Origin: a virus
Taxonomy: Duplodnaviria > Caudoviricetes
IMG/VR virus record: IMGVR_UViG_3300028626_000002
Coordinates: 1-64,000 of that record
DNA: 64,000 bases
Strand: one strand, 5' to 3'
The notes under the pieces are model-generated. The model saw only the letters and a program-made list of their open reading frames with translations. It was not told the DNA's origin and did not search any database. Shown here piece after piece: positions 53,515 to 63,738 of the stretch. Every line of letters starts with the position of its first letter. Within the stretch, counting starts at the first letter, position 1. The translations under genes and the position numbers were made by a program.

Positions 53515-54661
53515 CCGTGCCGCCAAGGTGATGGAGGAGCTGAACGCCAAGTACGGCGGGAAGGCCGTCATCGTCCCGGCGCGGCAGATCAACACCTGCG
53601 ATGACCTGCGGCGGCCGACGGGCATCACCTCGCTCGACCTGGCTCTCGGGGGCGGTCCGCAGGGCGGCCGGCTCGTCGTCATCTCCGGGGAGGCGGGGCT
53701 GGGCAAGGACTACCTGCTCGACCGCATCATGGCCAACATCCAGACCAACTACGGGGAGGATACCCGCATCTGCCTGGCGTCGTTCGGGGCCGAGCACGAC
53801 GCGCTCTTCGCACAGTCGAACGGCGTGGCGTTCCCGATCTCGGACGACGCCCTGGCACGGCTGGAGAAGGACTCCATCGACCGCGGGGATGGTCCGCTGC
53901 CTCCGGAGATGAAGGCGGCCCTGCAGTACGAGATCGGCAAGATCATCACGCCGGTGGTGAACTACGACGACCCGGAGGTCGCCAAGAACCCTGCCGGCTG
54001 GCTCGCCAAGGTCCTGCTCGACGTGGTCAAGTCGGGCGTCTTCCAGCTCGTCGTCCTCAACGAGGTGGGCGGGCAGACGTCCAAGGACCGGGCCGCGCGG
54101 GAACTCGACGGCGAGGATAAGAAGCAGGTGGGCGAGGTCGCCAAGTTCTACGACGACTTCATGGCCAGGTACTGCCTGTACATGAAGCAGTCGACCGTGG
54201 AGGCGGCGAACGAGACGACCCTCATCTTCCTGTCCCAGGTGCGCATCACGAACATCGGCCCCGGGCGCAACCCGTTCTTGGCGTCTGTGGGCGGCAACCA
54301 CCTGAAGCACGTCAAGAGCATCGAGCTGATGCTGTCGTCGGGCGGGCCGGTGGAGCGCTCCGGTGAGATCGTCGGCAAGACCATCAAGTGGAAGGTCGTG
54401 AAGGGAAAGCACGGCATCCACGACGGCGAGACCGGCGAGTACGACTACTTCAATGGCCTGGGCGTCGACCTCGCCGACGACACGGTGAAGACCGCGGTGA
54501 AGATGGGGGTCGTCGCGAAGGATCCGCCGTGGTTCACGTGGCGGAACCTCCACATCAAGGGCCTGGCGAACTTCCAGAAGAAGGTGTCCGACGACAACCT
54601 TCTCGACCGTCTCAGGGCCGACGTCTTCAACAAGGCCGGCCTGATGTTCCGCGTGAGGTGA
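53489..54661 (+). CDS. RecA/UvsX-like recombinase (divergent Walker motifs)
   Basis: TGITSLDLALGGG..GR.V.I.G..GLGKD; IFLSQVR; GGN.LKH; K.KVVK.K. Confidence 0.88.
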   Translation: MAKPKAPSDRAAKVMEELNAKYGGKAVIVPARQINTCDDLRRPTGITSLDLALGGGPQGGRLVVISGEAGLGKDYLLDRIMANIQTNYGEDTRICLASFGAEHDALFAQSNGVAFPISDDALARLEKDSIDRGDGPLPPEMKAALQYEIGKIITPVVNYDDPEVAKNPAGWLAKVLLDVVKSGVFQLVVLNEVGGQTSKDRAARELDGEDKKQVGEVAKFYDDFMARYCLYMKQSTVEAANETTLIFLSQVRITNIGPGRNPFLASVGGNHLKHVKSIELMLSSGGPVERSGEIVGKTIKWKVVKGKHGIHDGETGEYDYFNGLGVDLADDTVKTAVKMGVVAKDPPWFTWRNLHIKGLANFQKKVSDDNLLDRLRADVFNKAGLMFRVR

Positions 54662-60220: not shown

Positions 60221-60466
60221 ATGCCGACCGATTCTCCTCTCATCGCTCTCGCGGTACCGGAGGTCGTTCTGGGGACCGTTCTGGAGGCTGCCCGGGAACA
60301 CGCCCGCTACCTGCAGCTGCGGGCCCACGTCTCTGACGATGCCCCCCACGGCGCAAGGACTGGCGTCGAGCCCCTGCTGGGGCACCGCAACCGCGAGGCG
60401 GCCTGCTCGGAGGCGCAGGAGATCATGCAGGCCGCCAGGCACATCGCTTCCCTCGTCAGGCGGTAA
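60221..60466 (+). CDS. Hypothetical protein
   Basis: GGAGG RBS, 81 aa. Confidence 0.55.
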   Translation: MPTDSPLIALAVPEVVLGTVLEAAREHARYLQLRAHVSDDAPHGARTGVEPLLGHRNREAACSEAQEIMQAARHIASLVRR

Positions 60467-60488
60467 TATCGCGAGTTCCTGGGTATAA
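60457..60488 (+). promoter_or_regulatory. Repeated promoter-like motif CAGGCGGTAA-N6-GAGTTCCTGGGTATAA
   Basis: Second copy of 44599..44630; lies upstream of the RAMP-like gene. Confidence 0.7.
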
Positions 60489-60541
60489 CGTGAATGCTTA
60501 GGGGCACTTTCGTCCCCTACCCTTTCAGGAGGAGCACACCC

Positions 60542-61210
60542 ATGGCACCGCGCAAGAAGAACCCCGTGGACCTCAAGCCCGAGGGCGCACTCGAAGCGAA
60601 GGGCGGGACCGGCGTCACCAACGCCGCGGCCTTCGCCCCGTACCGGGTGGAGATGGAGCTGACCGGCACCGCCGACATGCTCATGCACCGGTACGACGTC
60701 GAGGAGGTCGAGAGCAAGAGCGCCGGCACGAGCAAGGGCGGCAAGTCCAAGAAGACCGACAACGTCGAGTCCTACCTGTACCGCGGCAAGGACGGGATGC
60801 TCCGGCTGCCCGGCGAGGTCGTCAAGGCGTGCATCGTGGACGGCGCCAAGTTCCTGCAGGACCCGCGCTCGCCCCGCAAGGCGGCGAAGGACCTCTTCAA
60901 GGCGGGCATCCTGGCCGCGGCCCCCACGGAGTTCCAGAACCACGAGGGGAAGCAGGTCCGGGAGTGGGACTACCTCGACAAGCGCCGGGCCGTCGTCCAG
61001 CGCAACGCCGTGCTGCGGGTCCGCCCGGCGTTCATGGCCGGCTGGCGGGTCAAGGCCACGTTCGACGTCATCGCGTCGGATCTCATCACCGAGGACTTCT
61101 TCCGCAAGGCCGTCGACAACGCCGGCCGGTTCTGCGGCATGTGCGACTTCAGGCCGGATTTCGGCAGGTTCCGCGTCGACAGCTGGCGCGTGACCCCCTT
61201 GACCGTGTGA
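60542..61210 (+). CDS. Stand-alone RAMP/Cas7-like protein
   Basis: Beta1 VEMELTGTADMLMH; LPGEVVKACI (cf. RAMP IPGSSLKG); thumb-like hairpin DKRRAVVQRNAVLRVRP; terminal Gly loop AGRFCGMCDFRPDFGRF; AGGAGG RBS. Confidence 0.6.
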   Translation: MAPRKKNPVDLKPEGALEAKGGTGVTNAAAFAPYRVEMELTGTADMLMHRYDVEEVESKSAGTSKGGKSKKTDNVESYLYRGKDGMLRLPGEVVKACIVDGAKFLQDPRSPRKAAKDLFKAGILAAAPTEFQNHEGKQVREWDYLDKRRAVVQRNAVLRVRPAFMAGWRVKATFDVIASDLITEDFFRKAVDNAGRFCGMCDFRPDFGRFRVDSWRVTPLTV

Positions 61211-61251
61211 CACGGTCGGACTACCATCCACCCTTCGCCTCTCCAAGGAGG

Positions 61252-61371
61252 ATGACCGTGGCGAACAAGAACCTGTTCAAGTCCCTGTCCTCGAAGCGCC
61301 CCCCGACCACCGTCAAGAACGACGCTGGCGGGCGGGCCTACCCGCGGGGCCCGAAGCTGGCAACCGGTTGA
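61252..61371 (+). pseudogene. Truncated duplicate of the Ro60/TROVE N-terminus
   Basis: (M)ANKNLFKSLSSKRPPTTVKNDAGGRAYPRGPKLATG* is 25/35 identical to the TROVE start; AAGGAGG RBS. Confidence 0.85.
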
Positions 61372-61396
61372 CACCTGTGCGGCAACAGGTTACCCT
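61368..61396 (+). promoter_or_regulatory. Sigma70-like promoter TTGACA-N17-TACCCT with palindromic spacer
   Basis: -35 overlaps the remnant's TGA; ACCTGT-N6-ACAGGT at 61373..61390. Confidence 0.65.
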
Positions 61397-61414
61397 CTGG
61401 GCGGAGGTGACAAG

Positions 61415-61903
61415 ATGGCCACACCAGAGGAACTTGCGTACTGCGCAGGGGTAATTGACTCGGATGGGTGCATCCGAGTGGGTCGCGGGGTCAAGCGTGA
61501 CAAGCGAGCGGGCAAACACAGCGCTTACGCTGACTACCACCCCGCTGTCCACGTCGGCCAGGTGGAACCACAAGCGGTTGACCTGCTGAAGCGGGTATTC
61601 GGAGGAAGCATCTACCTGCGCAAGCGCGACAAGAAGGCCCACCGCACCTTGATGGTGTGGCGAGTGAGGGACAACCTTGCGGCGGAATGCGCCAGGCAGT
61701 TGCTGCCCTACCTGCGCATCAAGAAGGCGCAGGCACTGAACTGTATTGCCCTGCAGGACTACCGCCACGAGTACGGCAGGCAGTCAAGGGCGGTGAAGGG
61801 GAGGGCCGGTACTACATTCCGCACAGCCGACGTGATACAGAGGCTCGAGGAGTTCTACGCGGAGTCGAGGAGGCTCAACGCAGGGAGCACGGAGGAACCA
61901 TAA
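61415..61903 (+). mobile_element. Free-standing single-motif LAGLIDADG homing endonuclease
   Basis: LAYCAGVIDSDGCI, FGGSI, LLPYLRIKKAQA; atypical codon usage; GGAGGT RBS. Confidence 0.92.
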
Positions 61904-63678
61904 TGGCCAACAAGACGCTGTTCAAGTCCACGAGTAGCAAGCGTCCCCCCACGGACACGACCAACGAGGCCGGGGGCCGGGCATACAACAGGGACTCTCG
62001 CCTCGCGCTCGCGCAGCTCAGTGCAACCGGCTGCCTCGGCGGCACGTTCTACACGAGCCCCGAACAGGAGCTGGCGACCATCCTGGACCTCTGTGGCCAG
62101 AACTCCCCCGAGTTCGTGGCCAAGGCCGCCGTCTACGCCCGCAAGCGCGGGTTCATGAAGGACGCCCCCGCCCTGATGGTGGCGCACCTGGCGTCGCTGC
62201 AGACCGCGGAGGGCCGGAACGCCTTCACGCAGGCGTTCCCGCTCGTCATGGACAACGCGAAGATGGTCCGGAACTTCGTCCAGATCATCCGTTCCGGGCA
62301 GGCCGGCCGCAAGTCGTTCGGTTCCCGGCCCAAGAAGCTGATCCAGGCGTGGTTCAACAACATCCCGGACCACGCGCTGTTCAACTCCAGCATCGGGCAG
62401 GACCCGTCGCTGGGGGACATCATCAACCTGGTCCACCCGCTGCCCAAGACGGACTCCCGCCGGGCCTTGTACGGCTACCTGAAGGGCACCGAGGGCATCA
62501 CCCGGGAGGCGTTCGACCGGCTGCCGCAGGCCGAGCGGTTCAACCGGCATGGCGACCCGCGCTTCTACTTCTCCGACGACCTGCCGCCCCTGGTGCAGGC
62601 CTACGAGCAGCTGAAGCGCGGCGCGTGGGACGGCGAGCAGCTGCCGCGGGTCAACTTCCAGATGCTGACCTCGCTGAAGCTGTCGAAGGACCAGTGGGCC
62701 GAGGTGGCCATGACGATGTCGTGGTACGCCCTGCGGATGAACCTGAACACCCTGCTGCGGCATGGCGTGTTCGACATCCCGGGGATGACGCCGAAGATCG
62801 TCGCCCGGCTGACGGACCCGGAGGCCATCCGCAAGGCCAAGGCCTTCCCGTACCAGCTGCTGACCGCGTACCTCTACGCGGACGACAAGCTGCCGCGCGC
62901 GGTCAAGAACGCCCTGCAGGACGCCATGGAGGTGGCCTGCGAGAACGTCCCGCTCATCGGGAGCGGCCGCATCCTCATCTGCCCGGACGTGTCCGGGTCG
63001 ATGCGCGAGCCCATCACCGGCAAGCGGGACCAGGTGTCGAAGATCAACCGCATCCACGTGGCGGCGCTCATCGCCGCGGCGCTGATGCGGAAGAACCCGG
63101 ACGCGGACATCCTGCCGTTCGCCAACGACGTGCGCGGGGACATCCAGTTCAACCCCCGCGACAGCATCATGACGAACGCCCAGCGCGTCTACGACGCGGC
63201 CGCCGGCGGAACCCGCATGGCCGCGCCGCTGCTCCTGGCCAACCGGGAGCAGCGGAAGTACGAGGCGGTGGTCTTCGTCTCGGACAACGAGTCCTGGATG
63301 GACAGCGAGGGTCGGCACTACGGCCCCTGCGGGAAGCAGCTGTGGTCGAACCCCCTGTTCCAGCACCCGACCACCAAGGACTGGGGGGCGACGCAGACCC
63401 TGGAGGAGTGGAACACCTTCTCCCGGCGCAACCACGGCGCCAAGCTGGTGTGCGTCGACCTGACGCCGGACACCACCGTGCAGTGCATCGACCGGGCGGA
63501 CATCCTCAACGTCGGCGGCTTCTCCGACGCGGTGTTCGACGTCATCGACTCGTTCGCGAAGGGCGACCTGACCCCGGAGCACTGGGTGGGCGAGATCGAG
63601 CGCATCAACCTGCACCAGTTCGACCCGACCCCACACGAGGTGGGCCAGGTCGAGGAATCGGCCGAGCCGCTGGCCTAA
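61903..63678 (+). CDS. Ro60/Rsr TROVE-domain RNA-binding protein with vWA domain
   Basis: NEAGG.AY, LAQ...TG....TFY, MKD.PA, LRMNLNT..RHGVF, FPYQL, DVSGSM (MIDAS), SDNESW, GGFSDAVF. Confidence 0.95.
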   Translation: MANKTLFKSTSSKRPPTDTTNEAGGRAYNRDSRLALAQLSATGCLGGTFYTSPEQELATILDLCGQNSPEFVAKAAVYARKRGFMKDAPALMVAHLASLQTAEGRNAFTQAFPLVMDNAKMVRNFVQIIRSGQAGRKSFGSRPKKLIQAWFNNIPDHALFNSSIGQDPSLGDIINLVHPLPKTDSRRALYGYLKGTEGITREAFDRLPQAERFNRHGDPRFYFSDDLPPLVQAYEQLKRGAWDGEQLPRVNFQMLTSLKLSKDQWAEVAMTMSWYALRMNLNTLLRHGVFDIPGMTPKIVARLTDPEAIRKAKAFPYQLLTAYLYADDKLPRAVKNALQDAMEVACENVPLIGSGRILICPDVSGSMREPITGKRDQVSKINRIHVAALIAAALMRKNPDADILPFANDVRGDIQFNPRDSIMTNAQRVYDAAAGGTRMAAPLLLANREQRKYEAVVFVSDNESWMDSEGRHYGPCGKQLWSNPLFQHPTTKDWGATQTLEEWNTFSRRNHGAKLVCVDLTPDTTVQCIDRADILNVGGFSDAVFDVIDSFAKGDLTPEHWVGEIERINLHQFDPTPHEVGQVEESAEPLA

Positions 63679-63697
63679 CCCACCAGCAGCTCAGTCA

Positions 63698-63738
63698 CCC
63701 CGGCCCCGTGGCGCGTGCTCCCGCTCACGGGGCCGGGG
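63698..63738 (+). terminator. 13-bp GC-rich hairpin after TROVE
   Basis: CCCCGGCCCCGTG-N15-CACGGGGCCGGGG. Confidence 0.5.

What the first reader, a model, noticed from the sequence alone, without database searches (positions are those of the whole stretch)
60457..63738. Orphan RAMP/Cas7-like gene operonic with Ro60: candidate phage RNA-guided or RNA-handling module without a CRISPR array
Seen: a 222-aa ORF (60542..61210) with RAMP-like hallmarks (N-terminal strand ending ..LMH, LPGEVVK, thumb-like hairpin, C-terminal G..DFRP.FGRF loop). It has a dedicated repeated promoter-like motif upstream, and before the endonuclease insertion it lay ~40 nt from the Ro60/TROVE start. No cas1/2/3/5/6/8/10, CRISPR array or short-period tandem repeat is present in the window. 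Known: Cas7-group RAMPs polymerise on guide RNAs; Ro60 binds Y RNAs and is usually found with RNA repair/decay genes. From memory (unverified), some viral stand-alone RAMPs use short-period GGY-NN repeat RNAs; I looked for such an array beside this gene and found none. Inference: two co-transcribed RNA-binding proteins could form a phage ribonucleoprotein system, e.g. a filament on a non-CRISPR guide encoded elsewhere in the genome, a crRNA sponge (anti-CRISPR), or an RNA-guided repressor.
Basis: partly seen in the sequence, partly recalled or inferred. Interest (0 to 1): 0.85.

Follow-up and report, generated by a model that had tools for sequence, protein, structure and literature searches.

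The report
Phage VIPR protein with distant guide array
The lone Cas7-like gene is a Vipr protein of the VIPR phage system (CRISPR-like, described in 2026), its missing guide-RNA array lies 49 kb away in the same phage genome, and the neighbouring Ro60 gene belongs to a separate Ro60/Y-RNA module.

Summary
Window 60542-61210 (+) encodes a 222-aa RAMP protein, and the window has no CRISPR array and no 5-nt repeat.

The protein is not an orphan of unknown kind. A profile of its family hits the solved SUSP1 Vipr protein (E 8e-15). The predicted fold matches Csm3/Cas7. The residues that hold the GGY bases in SUSP1 Vipr are kept.

The guide array exists but lies outside the window, at genome 109,872-110,732 (+). 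It has 12 modules of NN-GGY pentamers, each ending in GGGTC[A/G/C]AA. Position 1 is G in 95% of pentamers, position 2 is G in 79%, position 3 is a pyrimidine in 76%, and the NN positions are near-random. Simulated genomes give nothing comparable.

Most of 80 viral-contig relatives (about 76) have such arrays right next to vipr, and none has Ro60 within 10 kb. Only one 92%-identical sister contig shares the vipr-Ro60 layout.

Ro60 has its own RNA partners just downstream: a tmRNA and three YrlA-like Y RNAs.

Guide targets remain unresolved. Two guides give exact or near-exact gapped matches (an ImmA-type peptidase gene, a SNF2 helicase motif) at near-chance frequency.

Verdict: a new member of the known VIPR kind with an unusually split locus. 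This scan has noted VIPR-like systems in at least 231 other genomes.

The parts
60467..60541 (+). 75-nt gap upstream of vipr with the ribosome-binding site. It holds no vrRNA-like repeat.
   Evidence: Sequence. No YNNGG run. The fold is not better than shuffles (z -0.64). No sigma-70-like site. The heptamer AACGTGA at 60487 is also found upstream of the distant array.
60542..61210 (+). vipr: 222-aa Vipr protein, the RAMP subunit that polymerises on vrRNA.
   Evidence: The family profile hits PDB 36pp 'SUSP1 Vipr protein' at E 8e-15. BLASTP to SUSP1 Vipr gives 1e-12. The fold matches Csm3/Cas7. SUSP1 contact residues are kept: H17/H49, R138/R161, D177/D202, W178/F203, R179/R204, E71/E92, C173/C198. 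It matches phrog_4652.
61252..61371 (+). 39-codon Ro60 5' fragment: a diverged duplicate of the Ro60 start, left upstream of the endonuclease insertion.
   Evidence: Translation. Direct repeat 61259-61284 versus 61904-61929, 88%. The same layout is seen in sister contig L011.
61415..61903 (+). Free-standing homing endonuclease gene, LAGLIDADG-like, 162 aa.
   Evidence: phrog_5046, E 1.4e-17. Weak Pfam LAGLIDADG_1 match, E 0.078.
61903..63678 (+). Ro60 (TROVE plus vWA), 591 aa. A neighbour of vipr, not a conserved part of VIPR.
   Evidence: Pfam vWA_Ro60 1.2e-15 and TROVE 2.7e-8. phrog_850. The best phage relative is Myxococcus phage Mx1, 41.6% identity. Its RNA partners lie just beyond the window: tmRNA at genome 64,941-65,307 and YrlA-like RNAs at 65,747-65,880, 65,893-66,031 and 66,378-66,488.

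Best explanation
The 222-aa gene is vipr, the single effector protein of a VIPR system (Viral Interference Programmable Repeat). Its guides are encoded in trans, in a 12-module vrRNA array at genome 109,872-110,732 on the same strand, 48.7 kb downstream and outside the window.

**Likely mechanism, by analogy with the characterised SUSP1 system.**
1. The array is transcribed as one unit. A very stable hairpin ends the upstream gene and a 9-bp hairpin follows the last module.
2. The precursor is cut into 63-95-nt vrRNAs at or near the invariant junction GGGTC[A/G/C]AA.
3. One Vipr protomer binds each GGY, giving filaments of about 8-14 protomers.
4. The exposed NN dinucleotides read double-stranded DNA with one base skipped per unit (NNx), forming an R-loop that blocks transcription of a competing phage, prophage or satellite.

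No homologue of SUSP1/DSL-LC04 vap1 was found in the genome, and no known nuclease or defence family in the two ORFs upstream of vipr. Silencing is therefore more likely than cutting.

Ro60, the tmRNA and the Y RNAs form a separate RNA-quality-control module that merely abuts vipr in this phage lineage.

**Shown here:** homology, fold, conserved contact residues, the array and its statistics, and the locus comparison.
**Inferred:** that protein and RNA assemble, how the array is processed, that DNA is silenced, and what is targeted.
For: **Protein.**
- Profile hit to solved SUSP1 Vipr, E 8e-15 over nearly the full length; pairwise BLASTP 1e-12.
- The Foldseek hits listed are all Csm3/Cas7-type chains.
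- All SUSP1 residues reported to hold G1, G2 and Y3 are identical or conservative, per 10.64898/2026.04.26.720927 (read) and the mapping.

**Array.**
- My scan of both strands of the 125,326-bp genome finds 12 of the 13 runs scoring 4 or more inside one 860-nt block.
- 30 Markov-simulated genomes never exceed score 5, against up to 10.5 here.
- In the register anchored at the 3' end, 121 pentamers have G 95%, G 79%, Y 76%, then near-uniform NN that use all 16 dinucleotides. NN are 49% GC in a 67% GC genome.
- The block fills a 1.19-kb gene-free gap.
- A -41.6 kcal/mol hairpin (z -6.4) lies upstream.

**Cognate relation.**
- There is only one vipr in the genome.
- In most of 80 IMG/VR relatives (about 76) the same kind of array directly abuts vipr on the same strand.
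- Close relatives have compact multi-guide arrays with short junctions: L097 (54% identity) has about 14-nt ACA-type linkers, L098 has YYTC junctions.
- SUSP1 vrRNAs also end in ..TGGGT.
- No self-target exceeds the shuffled-guide null, as reported for natural VIPR systems.

**Ro60 is separate.**
Against: - The array is not next to vipr, unlike nearly all relatives, so the pairing rests on co-residence and shared architecture, not on an experiment.
- The short tail shows no conserved secondary structure, unlike the pseudoknot tail of SUSP1 vrRNAs.
- Several modules have degenerate units or one-base register shifts.
- No convincing natural target was found.
- The contig may be incomplete, so another array could lie in unassembled sequence.
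Confidence: 0.85

Rival explanations
1. One reading: Vipr and Ro60 are co-transcribed partners of one ribonucleoprotein system, with Ro60 as a new accessory protein, for example in guide maturation or quality control.
For: Before the endonuclease insertion, only 41 nt separated the vipr stop from the Ro60 start, with no predicted terminator between them. The layout is kept in a 92%-identical sister contig.
Against: No TROVE gene lies within 10 kb of vipr in 82 of the 83 related loci tested by tblastn, and none is listed among the called genes of three further relatives. Ro60 has its own cognate RNAs downstream: a tmRNA and three full-length YrlA-like matches. The published accessory proteins are described as DNA-interacting. 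Phage genes are tightly packed in general, so close spacing says little.
Confidence: 0.06
2. The distant array is a 'solo' array not meant for the phage's own Vipr. It might redirect or decoy the Vipr of rival phages, as described for satellites and VIPR-null phages. The local vipr would then work with other guides or be inactive.
For: Solo vrRNAs are documented in 10.64898/2026.10.15.759431. The array is a separate transcription unit far from vipr.
Against: The vipr gene is intact with all contact residues. No other guide run exists in the genome. The array architecture resembles arrays that abut the closest relatives' vipr. A resident Vipr would load these RNAs in any case.
Confidence: 0.07
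3. The protein is an anti-CRISPR crRNA sponge or a remnant of a CRISPR-Cas effector, and the pentamer block is unrelated low-complexity DNA.
For: The fold is Cas7-like.
Against: Sequence homology is to Vipr, not to any Cas7 family: no Pfam or PADLOC hit. The residues kept are those that read GGY. The block is far beyond chance and has the exact vrRNA signature.
Confidence: 0.02

Closest known systems
Type II VIPR of Escherichia phage SUSP1 (Vipr + vap1 + four vrRNAs); bioRxiv 10.64898/2026.04.26.720920 and .720927; PDB 36pp
   Same: Homologous effector (27-28% identity, profile E 8e-15). Same RAMP fold and same GGY-contact residues. Guides built of GGY-NN pentamers, 8-14 per guide, ending in ..TGGGT. 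It sits in the DNA-metabolism region of a lytic-type phage genome. No CRISPR array and no cas genes.
   Different: Here the guides are not at the vipr locus but 48.7 kb away. There are 12 guides in one compact block with 8-16-nt linkers, not about 100-nt RNAs with a 40-nt pseudoknot tail. No vap1 homologue is found. The protein has a roughly 30-aa disordered basic N-terminal extension. The genome is 67% GC and the host is unknown.
Compact or 'staggered' vrRNA arrays of other VIPR types (fig. S18 legend of 10.64898/2026.04.26.720920), as seen in relatives L097 and L098
   Same: Many guides lie head to tail with only a few bases between repeat tracts, which implies processing from one precursor. 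L098 and the array here share a GG|TC junction; L097 has short ACA-type linkers.
   Different: In those loci the array abuts vipr. The junction here is the longer invariant GGGTC[A/G/C]AA.
Solo (orphan) vrRNAs of F5 satellites and VIPR-null SUSP1-family phages (bioRxiv 10.64898/2026.10.15.759431)
   Same: Guide genes lie away from any vipr gene.
   Different: Here the same genome keeps an intact vipr, and the distant element is a full 12-guide array, not a single guide.
Cas7/Csm3 backbone subunits of class 1 CRISPR-Cas
   Same: RRM core, thumb and glycine-rich loop. One protomer per fixed RNA step, with periodic base flipping.
   Different: No CRISPR repeats and no Cas5/6/8/10/11 partners. The step is 5 nt, with three bases sequestered and two read. 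It is a sequence-unrelated family.
Ro60 (Rsr) with YrlA-type Y RNAs, as in bacteria and large actinophages
   Same: TROVE plus vWA protein next to tRNA-like Y RNAs and a tmRNA.
   Different: It is split off from a duplicated 5' end by a homing endonuclease, and it lies directly after vipr.

Membership tests
VIPR system | Effector homologous to characterised Vipr proteins | tested here: met
   hmmsearch of the family profile against PDB gives 36pp_D SUSP1 Vipr, E 8e-15, covering 172 of 210 profile positions. BLASTP gives 1e-12.
VIPR system | Minimal RAMP fold: RRM core, thumb, glycine-rich loop | tested here: met
   The model has pLDDT 81.8. The Foldseek hits listed are all Csm3/Cas7-type chains, E about 1e-5.
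VIPR system | Residues that hold G1, G2 and Y3 of the repeat (SUSP1 H17, R138, D177, W178, R179, E71, C173) | tested here: met
   They map to H49, R161, D202, F203 (aromatic kept), R204, E92 and C198. Most are invariant in 46 family members. K33 has no clear counterpart in the alignment.
VIPR system | vrRNA genes: at least 4 tandem YNNGG units with conserved GGY and variable NN | tested here: met
   12 modules of 8-14 units at genome 109,872-110,732. Position statistics.
VIPR system | vrRNA genes flank the vipr gene | tested here: not met
   No run lies within the window except a weak one at 53,684. The array is 48.7 kb from vipr. Most of 80 relatives (about 76) do have flanking arrays.
VIPR system | Conserved 3' tail after the repeat tract | tested here: inconclusive
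   The invariant sequence GGGTC[A/G/C]AA ends all 12 modules, but no conserved structure or covariation is seen. The SUSP1 tail is a 40-nt pseudoknot.
VIPR system | Accessory vap gene beside vipr | tested here: not met
   No homologue of SUSP1 or DSL-LC04 vap1 is found in the genome. The upstream 81-aa and 322-aa ORFs have no PADLOC hit, and Pfam and PHROGs give the 322-aa ORF only weak or unnamed matches (Kyano_Gp96-like, phrog_554). Not every published type has a vap.
VIPR system | Vipr-vrRNA filament binds DNA by the one-base-skip rule and silences it | not testable with these tools
   Needs RIP-seq, binding or reporter assays.
Class 1 CRISPR-Cas (Cas7 subunit) | CRISPR repeat-spacer array and partner cas genes | tested here: not met
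   No such repeats in the window. No cas family in PADLOC or Pfam. There is a single RAMP gene in the genome.
   tblastn of Ro60 against 83 related loci hits only the near-identical sister contig L011. L096-L098 list no TROVE family among their called genes.
Ro60/Y RNA module | TROVE plus vWA protein with adjacent Y RNA genes | tested here: met
   Pfam TROVE and vWA_Ro60. Three full-length YrlA matches at E 1.9e-8 to 1.2e-6, below Rfam's gathering score.

The most novel reading that the evidence does not exclude
The tight vipr-Ro60 junction is functional. The phage would couple its VIPR effector to the Ro60/Y-RNA machinery, for example by using a Ro60-tethered exonuclease to trim the 12-guide precursor at the GGGTC[A/G/C]AA junctions or to clear misassembled vrRNAs. 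That would make Ro60 a new, RNA-directed kind of VIPR accessory and would explain why the array can sit far from vipr.
Probability: 0.05. Interest if true: 0.65.

Novelty: new member of a known kind. Interest (0 to 1): 0.33.

Why it matters
It settles an apparent puzzle, a Cas7-like protein with no guide, by finding the guide array elsewhere in the genome.

It also gives a natural example of a fully split VIPR locus in a high-GC, 125-kb phage that is otherwise poorly characterised.

For anyone annotating VIPR systems, searching only the flanks of vipr can miss the array. Here a single 860-nt block 49 kb away carries all 12 guides. The compact junction motif and the lack of a structured tail may help define how such arrays are processed.

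The Ro60 link, which made the finding look exciting, is most likely an accident of gene order.

Tried and rejected
- **Near-identical DNA in GenBank phages:** none.
- **Pfam and PADLOC on the protein:** no family.
- **Conserved hairpin in the 12 tails:** none. Only 3 invariant pairs and no covariation.
- **Rfam on the array region:** nothing.
- **Self-targets of the 12 guides in the 125-kb genome:** none above the shuffled-guide null.
- **Targets in 83 related VIPR loci and 7 other loci:** none above the null.
- **Exact gapped-pattern scans of public collections.**
  - Guide 4 matches 22 of 22 read letters in one 46% GC viral contig, in a 283-aa ORF of no known family beside a terminase (the same contig came up again).
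  - Guide 4 also matches in an ImmA/IrrE-type peptidase gene beside an XRE repressor, in an alphaproteobacterial MAG.
  - Guide 5 matches 22 of 24 letters antisense to motif II (DVVIVDEAH) of a SNF2/ResIII helicase, in two identical 34% GC contigs.
  - Guides 3, 6 and 8 gave no hit. Two order-reversed control patterns also gave none.
  - By my rough estimate each scan would give about 0.02-0.2 hits by chance. The two guide-4 hits fall in unrelated proteins and in low-GC DNA, so I do not claim a target.
- **Shared promoter for vipr and the array:** only a common AACGTGA heptamer. Not convincing.
Full report
**1. What is in the sequence**

Window 60542-61210 (+) is a 222-aa ORF with a strong ribosome-binding site. 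It is followed by three features:
- a 39-codon fragment that duplicates the start of Ro60 (61252-61371);
- a 162-aa LAGLIDADG-like endonuclease gene (61415-61903);
- a complete 591-aa Ro60 gene (61903-63678), with TROVE and vWA_Ro60 domains.

The window holds no tandem repeat of period 5. PADLOC finds no cas or defence family in the four proteins tested here. Only the 'repeated promoter-like motif' could not be confirmed.

**2. What the protein is**

The protein has no Pfam family but belongs to phrog_4652. It has at least 400 relatives in metagenomes, and 386 stretches in viral contigs encode a relative.

- A profile of 46 members hits one solved structure, 36pp 'SUSP1 Vipr protein', at E 8e-15. 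Pairwise BLASTP to SUSP1 Vipr gives 1e-12.
- Vipr is the effector of VIPR systems, described in three 2026 preprints. It is a minimal RAMP that polymerises, one protomer per 5-nt repeat, on vrRNAs made of GGY-NN units. The NN dinucleotides read double-stranded DNA with one base skipped per unit, and this silences transcription of rival mobile elements.
- The AlphaFold model (pLDDT 81.8) matches Csm3/Cas7-type chains only.
- The SUSP1 residues reported to hold the GGY bases map onto identical or conservative residues here: H17, R138, D177, W178, R179, E71 and C173 become H49, R161, D202, F203, R204, E92 and C198. Most of these are invariant in the family.

The gene is a bona fide vipr.

**3. 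Where the guides are**

The window is the first 64 kb of a single 125,326-bp contig. I scanned both strands for runs of YNNGG units.
- 12 of the 13 runs scoring 4 or more fall in one block, genome 109,872-110,732 on the + strand. The only other run is a weak five-unit stretch inside a gene at 53,684.
- Thirty simulated genomes with the same dinucleotide statistics never exceeded score 5, against up to 10.5 here.
- The block has 12 modules spaced 63-88 nt apart, each ending in the invariant GGGTC[A/G/C]AA.
- In the register set by that motif, 121 pentamers read G 95%, G 79%, pyrimidine 76%, then two near-random positions. These use all 16 dinucleotides and are 49% GC in a 67% GC genome.
- The block fills a 1.19-kb gene-free gap.
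- A -41.6 kcal/mol hairpin (z -6.4) directly follows the upstream gene, and a 9-bp hairpin follows the last module. The block looks like its own transcription unit.
- There is only one vipr in the genome.
- A first-stage note on the neighbouring window describes the same block. I had found it independently.

**4. Comparison with relatives**

- In most of 80 IMG/VR loci that encode relatives (about 76), the same scanner finds arrays directly against vipr, upstream and/or downstream, on the same strand. This validates the scanner and shows that the layout here is the exception.
- Close relatives with DNA available have flanking arrays of compact, head-to-tail guides with short junctions. L097 (54% identity) has about 14-nt ACA-type linkers. 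L098 has roughly 20 modules joined by YYTC.
- SUSP1 vrRNAs also end in ..TGGGT.
- The distant array is thus of the clade's own type, which argues that it serves this Vipr.
- Two lineages lack flanking arrays: this phage with its 92%-identical sister contig L011, and L009/L010.

**5. Ro60**

- Ro60 was not detected by tblastn in any of the related loci tested except L011, and L096-L098 list no TROVE gene.
- Just past the window lie a tmRNA (genome 64,941-65,307) and three full-length YrlA-like Y RNAs, at E 1.9e-8 to 1.2e-6, below Rfam's gathering score. ARAGORN also calls a tRNA-like element inside the first one.
- The nearest phage Ro60 is that of Myxococcus phage Mx1. No Myxococcus phage appears among the Vipr matches.
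- Ro60 therefore has its own RNA partners and its own evolutionary company. Its position after vipr is best read as gene order in one lineage.

**6. Targets**

- The guides do not match the phage's own genome above a shuffled-guide null, as reported for natural systems.
- Exact gapped scans gave a few hits:
  - Guide 4 matches all 22 read letters, in codon phase, in an ORF of no known family beside a terminase in a 46% GC contig.
  - Guide 4 also matches in an ImmA/IrrE peptidase gene of a lysogeny module in an alphaproteobacterial MAG.
  - Guide 5 matches 22 of 24 letters antisense to helicase motif II of a SNF2/ResIII gene.
- Three other guides and two reversed-order controls gave nothing.
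- By my rough estimate the chance expectation is about 0.02-0.2 per scan. The hits are in unrelated proteins and low-GC DNA.
- An earlier follow-up in this scan that claimed motif targeting was later marked down.
- I treat the targets as unresolved, with odds of perhaps 0.2 that the ImmA-type or helicase matches reflect real target classes.

**7. Verdict**

This is a VIPR system whose two parts lie 48.7 kb apart, next to an unrelated Ro60/Y-RNA module.
- The kind is known, and this scan has notes on VIPR-like systems in at least 231 genomes. Dispersed or solo guides are in print and appear in earlier notes.
- Particular to this case: a full 12-guide array separated from an intact vipr, the GGGTC[A/G/C]AA junction without a structured tail, no vap1 homologue, and a high-GC phage of unknown host that also encodes its own RNA polymerase subunit.

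Noticed in passing
outside the window: genome 64,941-66,488 (L005:941-2488): A phage tmRNA gene (108.7 bits) is followed by at least three YrlA-like Y RNAs. The first contains a tRNA-like element that ARAGORN calls tRNA-Ser(GCT). A first-stage note claims nine Y-like units; I confirmed three with Rfam.
   Followed up: partly
window 61252-61929: The endonuclease cassette sits between a diverged 39-codon copy of the Ro60 start and the real Ro60 start; the first 26 nt compared are 88% identical. The endonuclease stop overlaps the Ro60 ATG (TAATG). The same arrangement is found in the 92%-related contig L011.
   Followed up: partly
window 61359-61404: A 22-nt direct repeat (2.1 copies, consensus GGCAACAGGTTGACACCTGGGC) lies in the gap just upstream of the endonuclease gene. 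It could be its promoter/operator or a remnant of the homing site.
   Followed up: no
outside the window: genome 72,932-77,518 (L005:8932-13515): A 1528-aa protein matches phage RNA polymerase beta-subunit families, so the phage probably has its own multisubunit RNA polymerase. Most large ORFs tested have no PHROG match.
   Followed up: no
outside the window: genome 86,008-88,206, site 87,235-87,269: The best (non-significant, 16/24) self-match of guide 5 falls, antisense and in codon register, on the Walker B motif (DVVVVDEVS) of the phage's own RecD2-like helicase. The guide itself spells the DEAH-type version of that motif.
   Followed up: partly
L041:10990-11080 (IMG/VR relative): Inside a vrRNA array of a related phage there is an element with a tRNA T-arm-like sequence (GGTTCGATTCCGG) between repeat tracts. 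It could be a processing signal.
   Followed up: no
L097:1631-3103: In the closest relative with an adjacent array, a DEAD/ResIII/SNF2 helicase gene directly follows the array. It could be a helicase-type accessory gene or an ordinary phage helicase.
   Followed up: no
outside the window: genome 114,996-115,072 (L007:10996-11072): A tRNA gene with anticodon TCA. ARAGORN calls it tRNA-SeC and Rfam scores it as a tRNA at 66 bits. It could be a UGA suppressor or selenocysteine tRNA in the phage.
   Followed up: no
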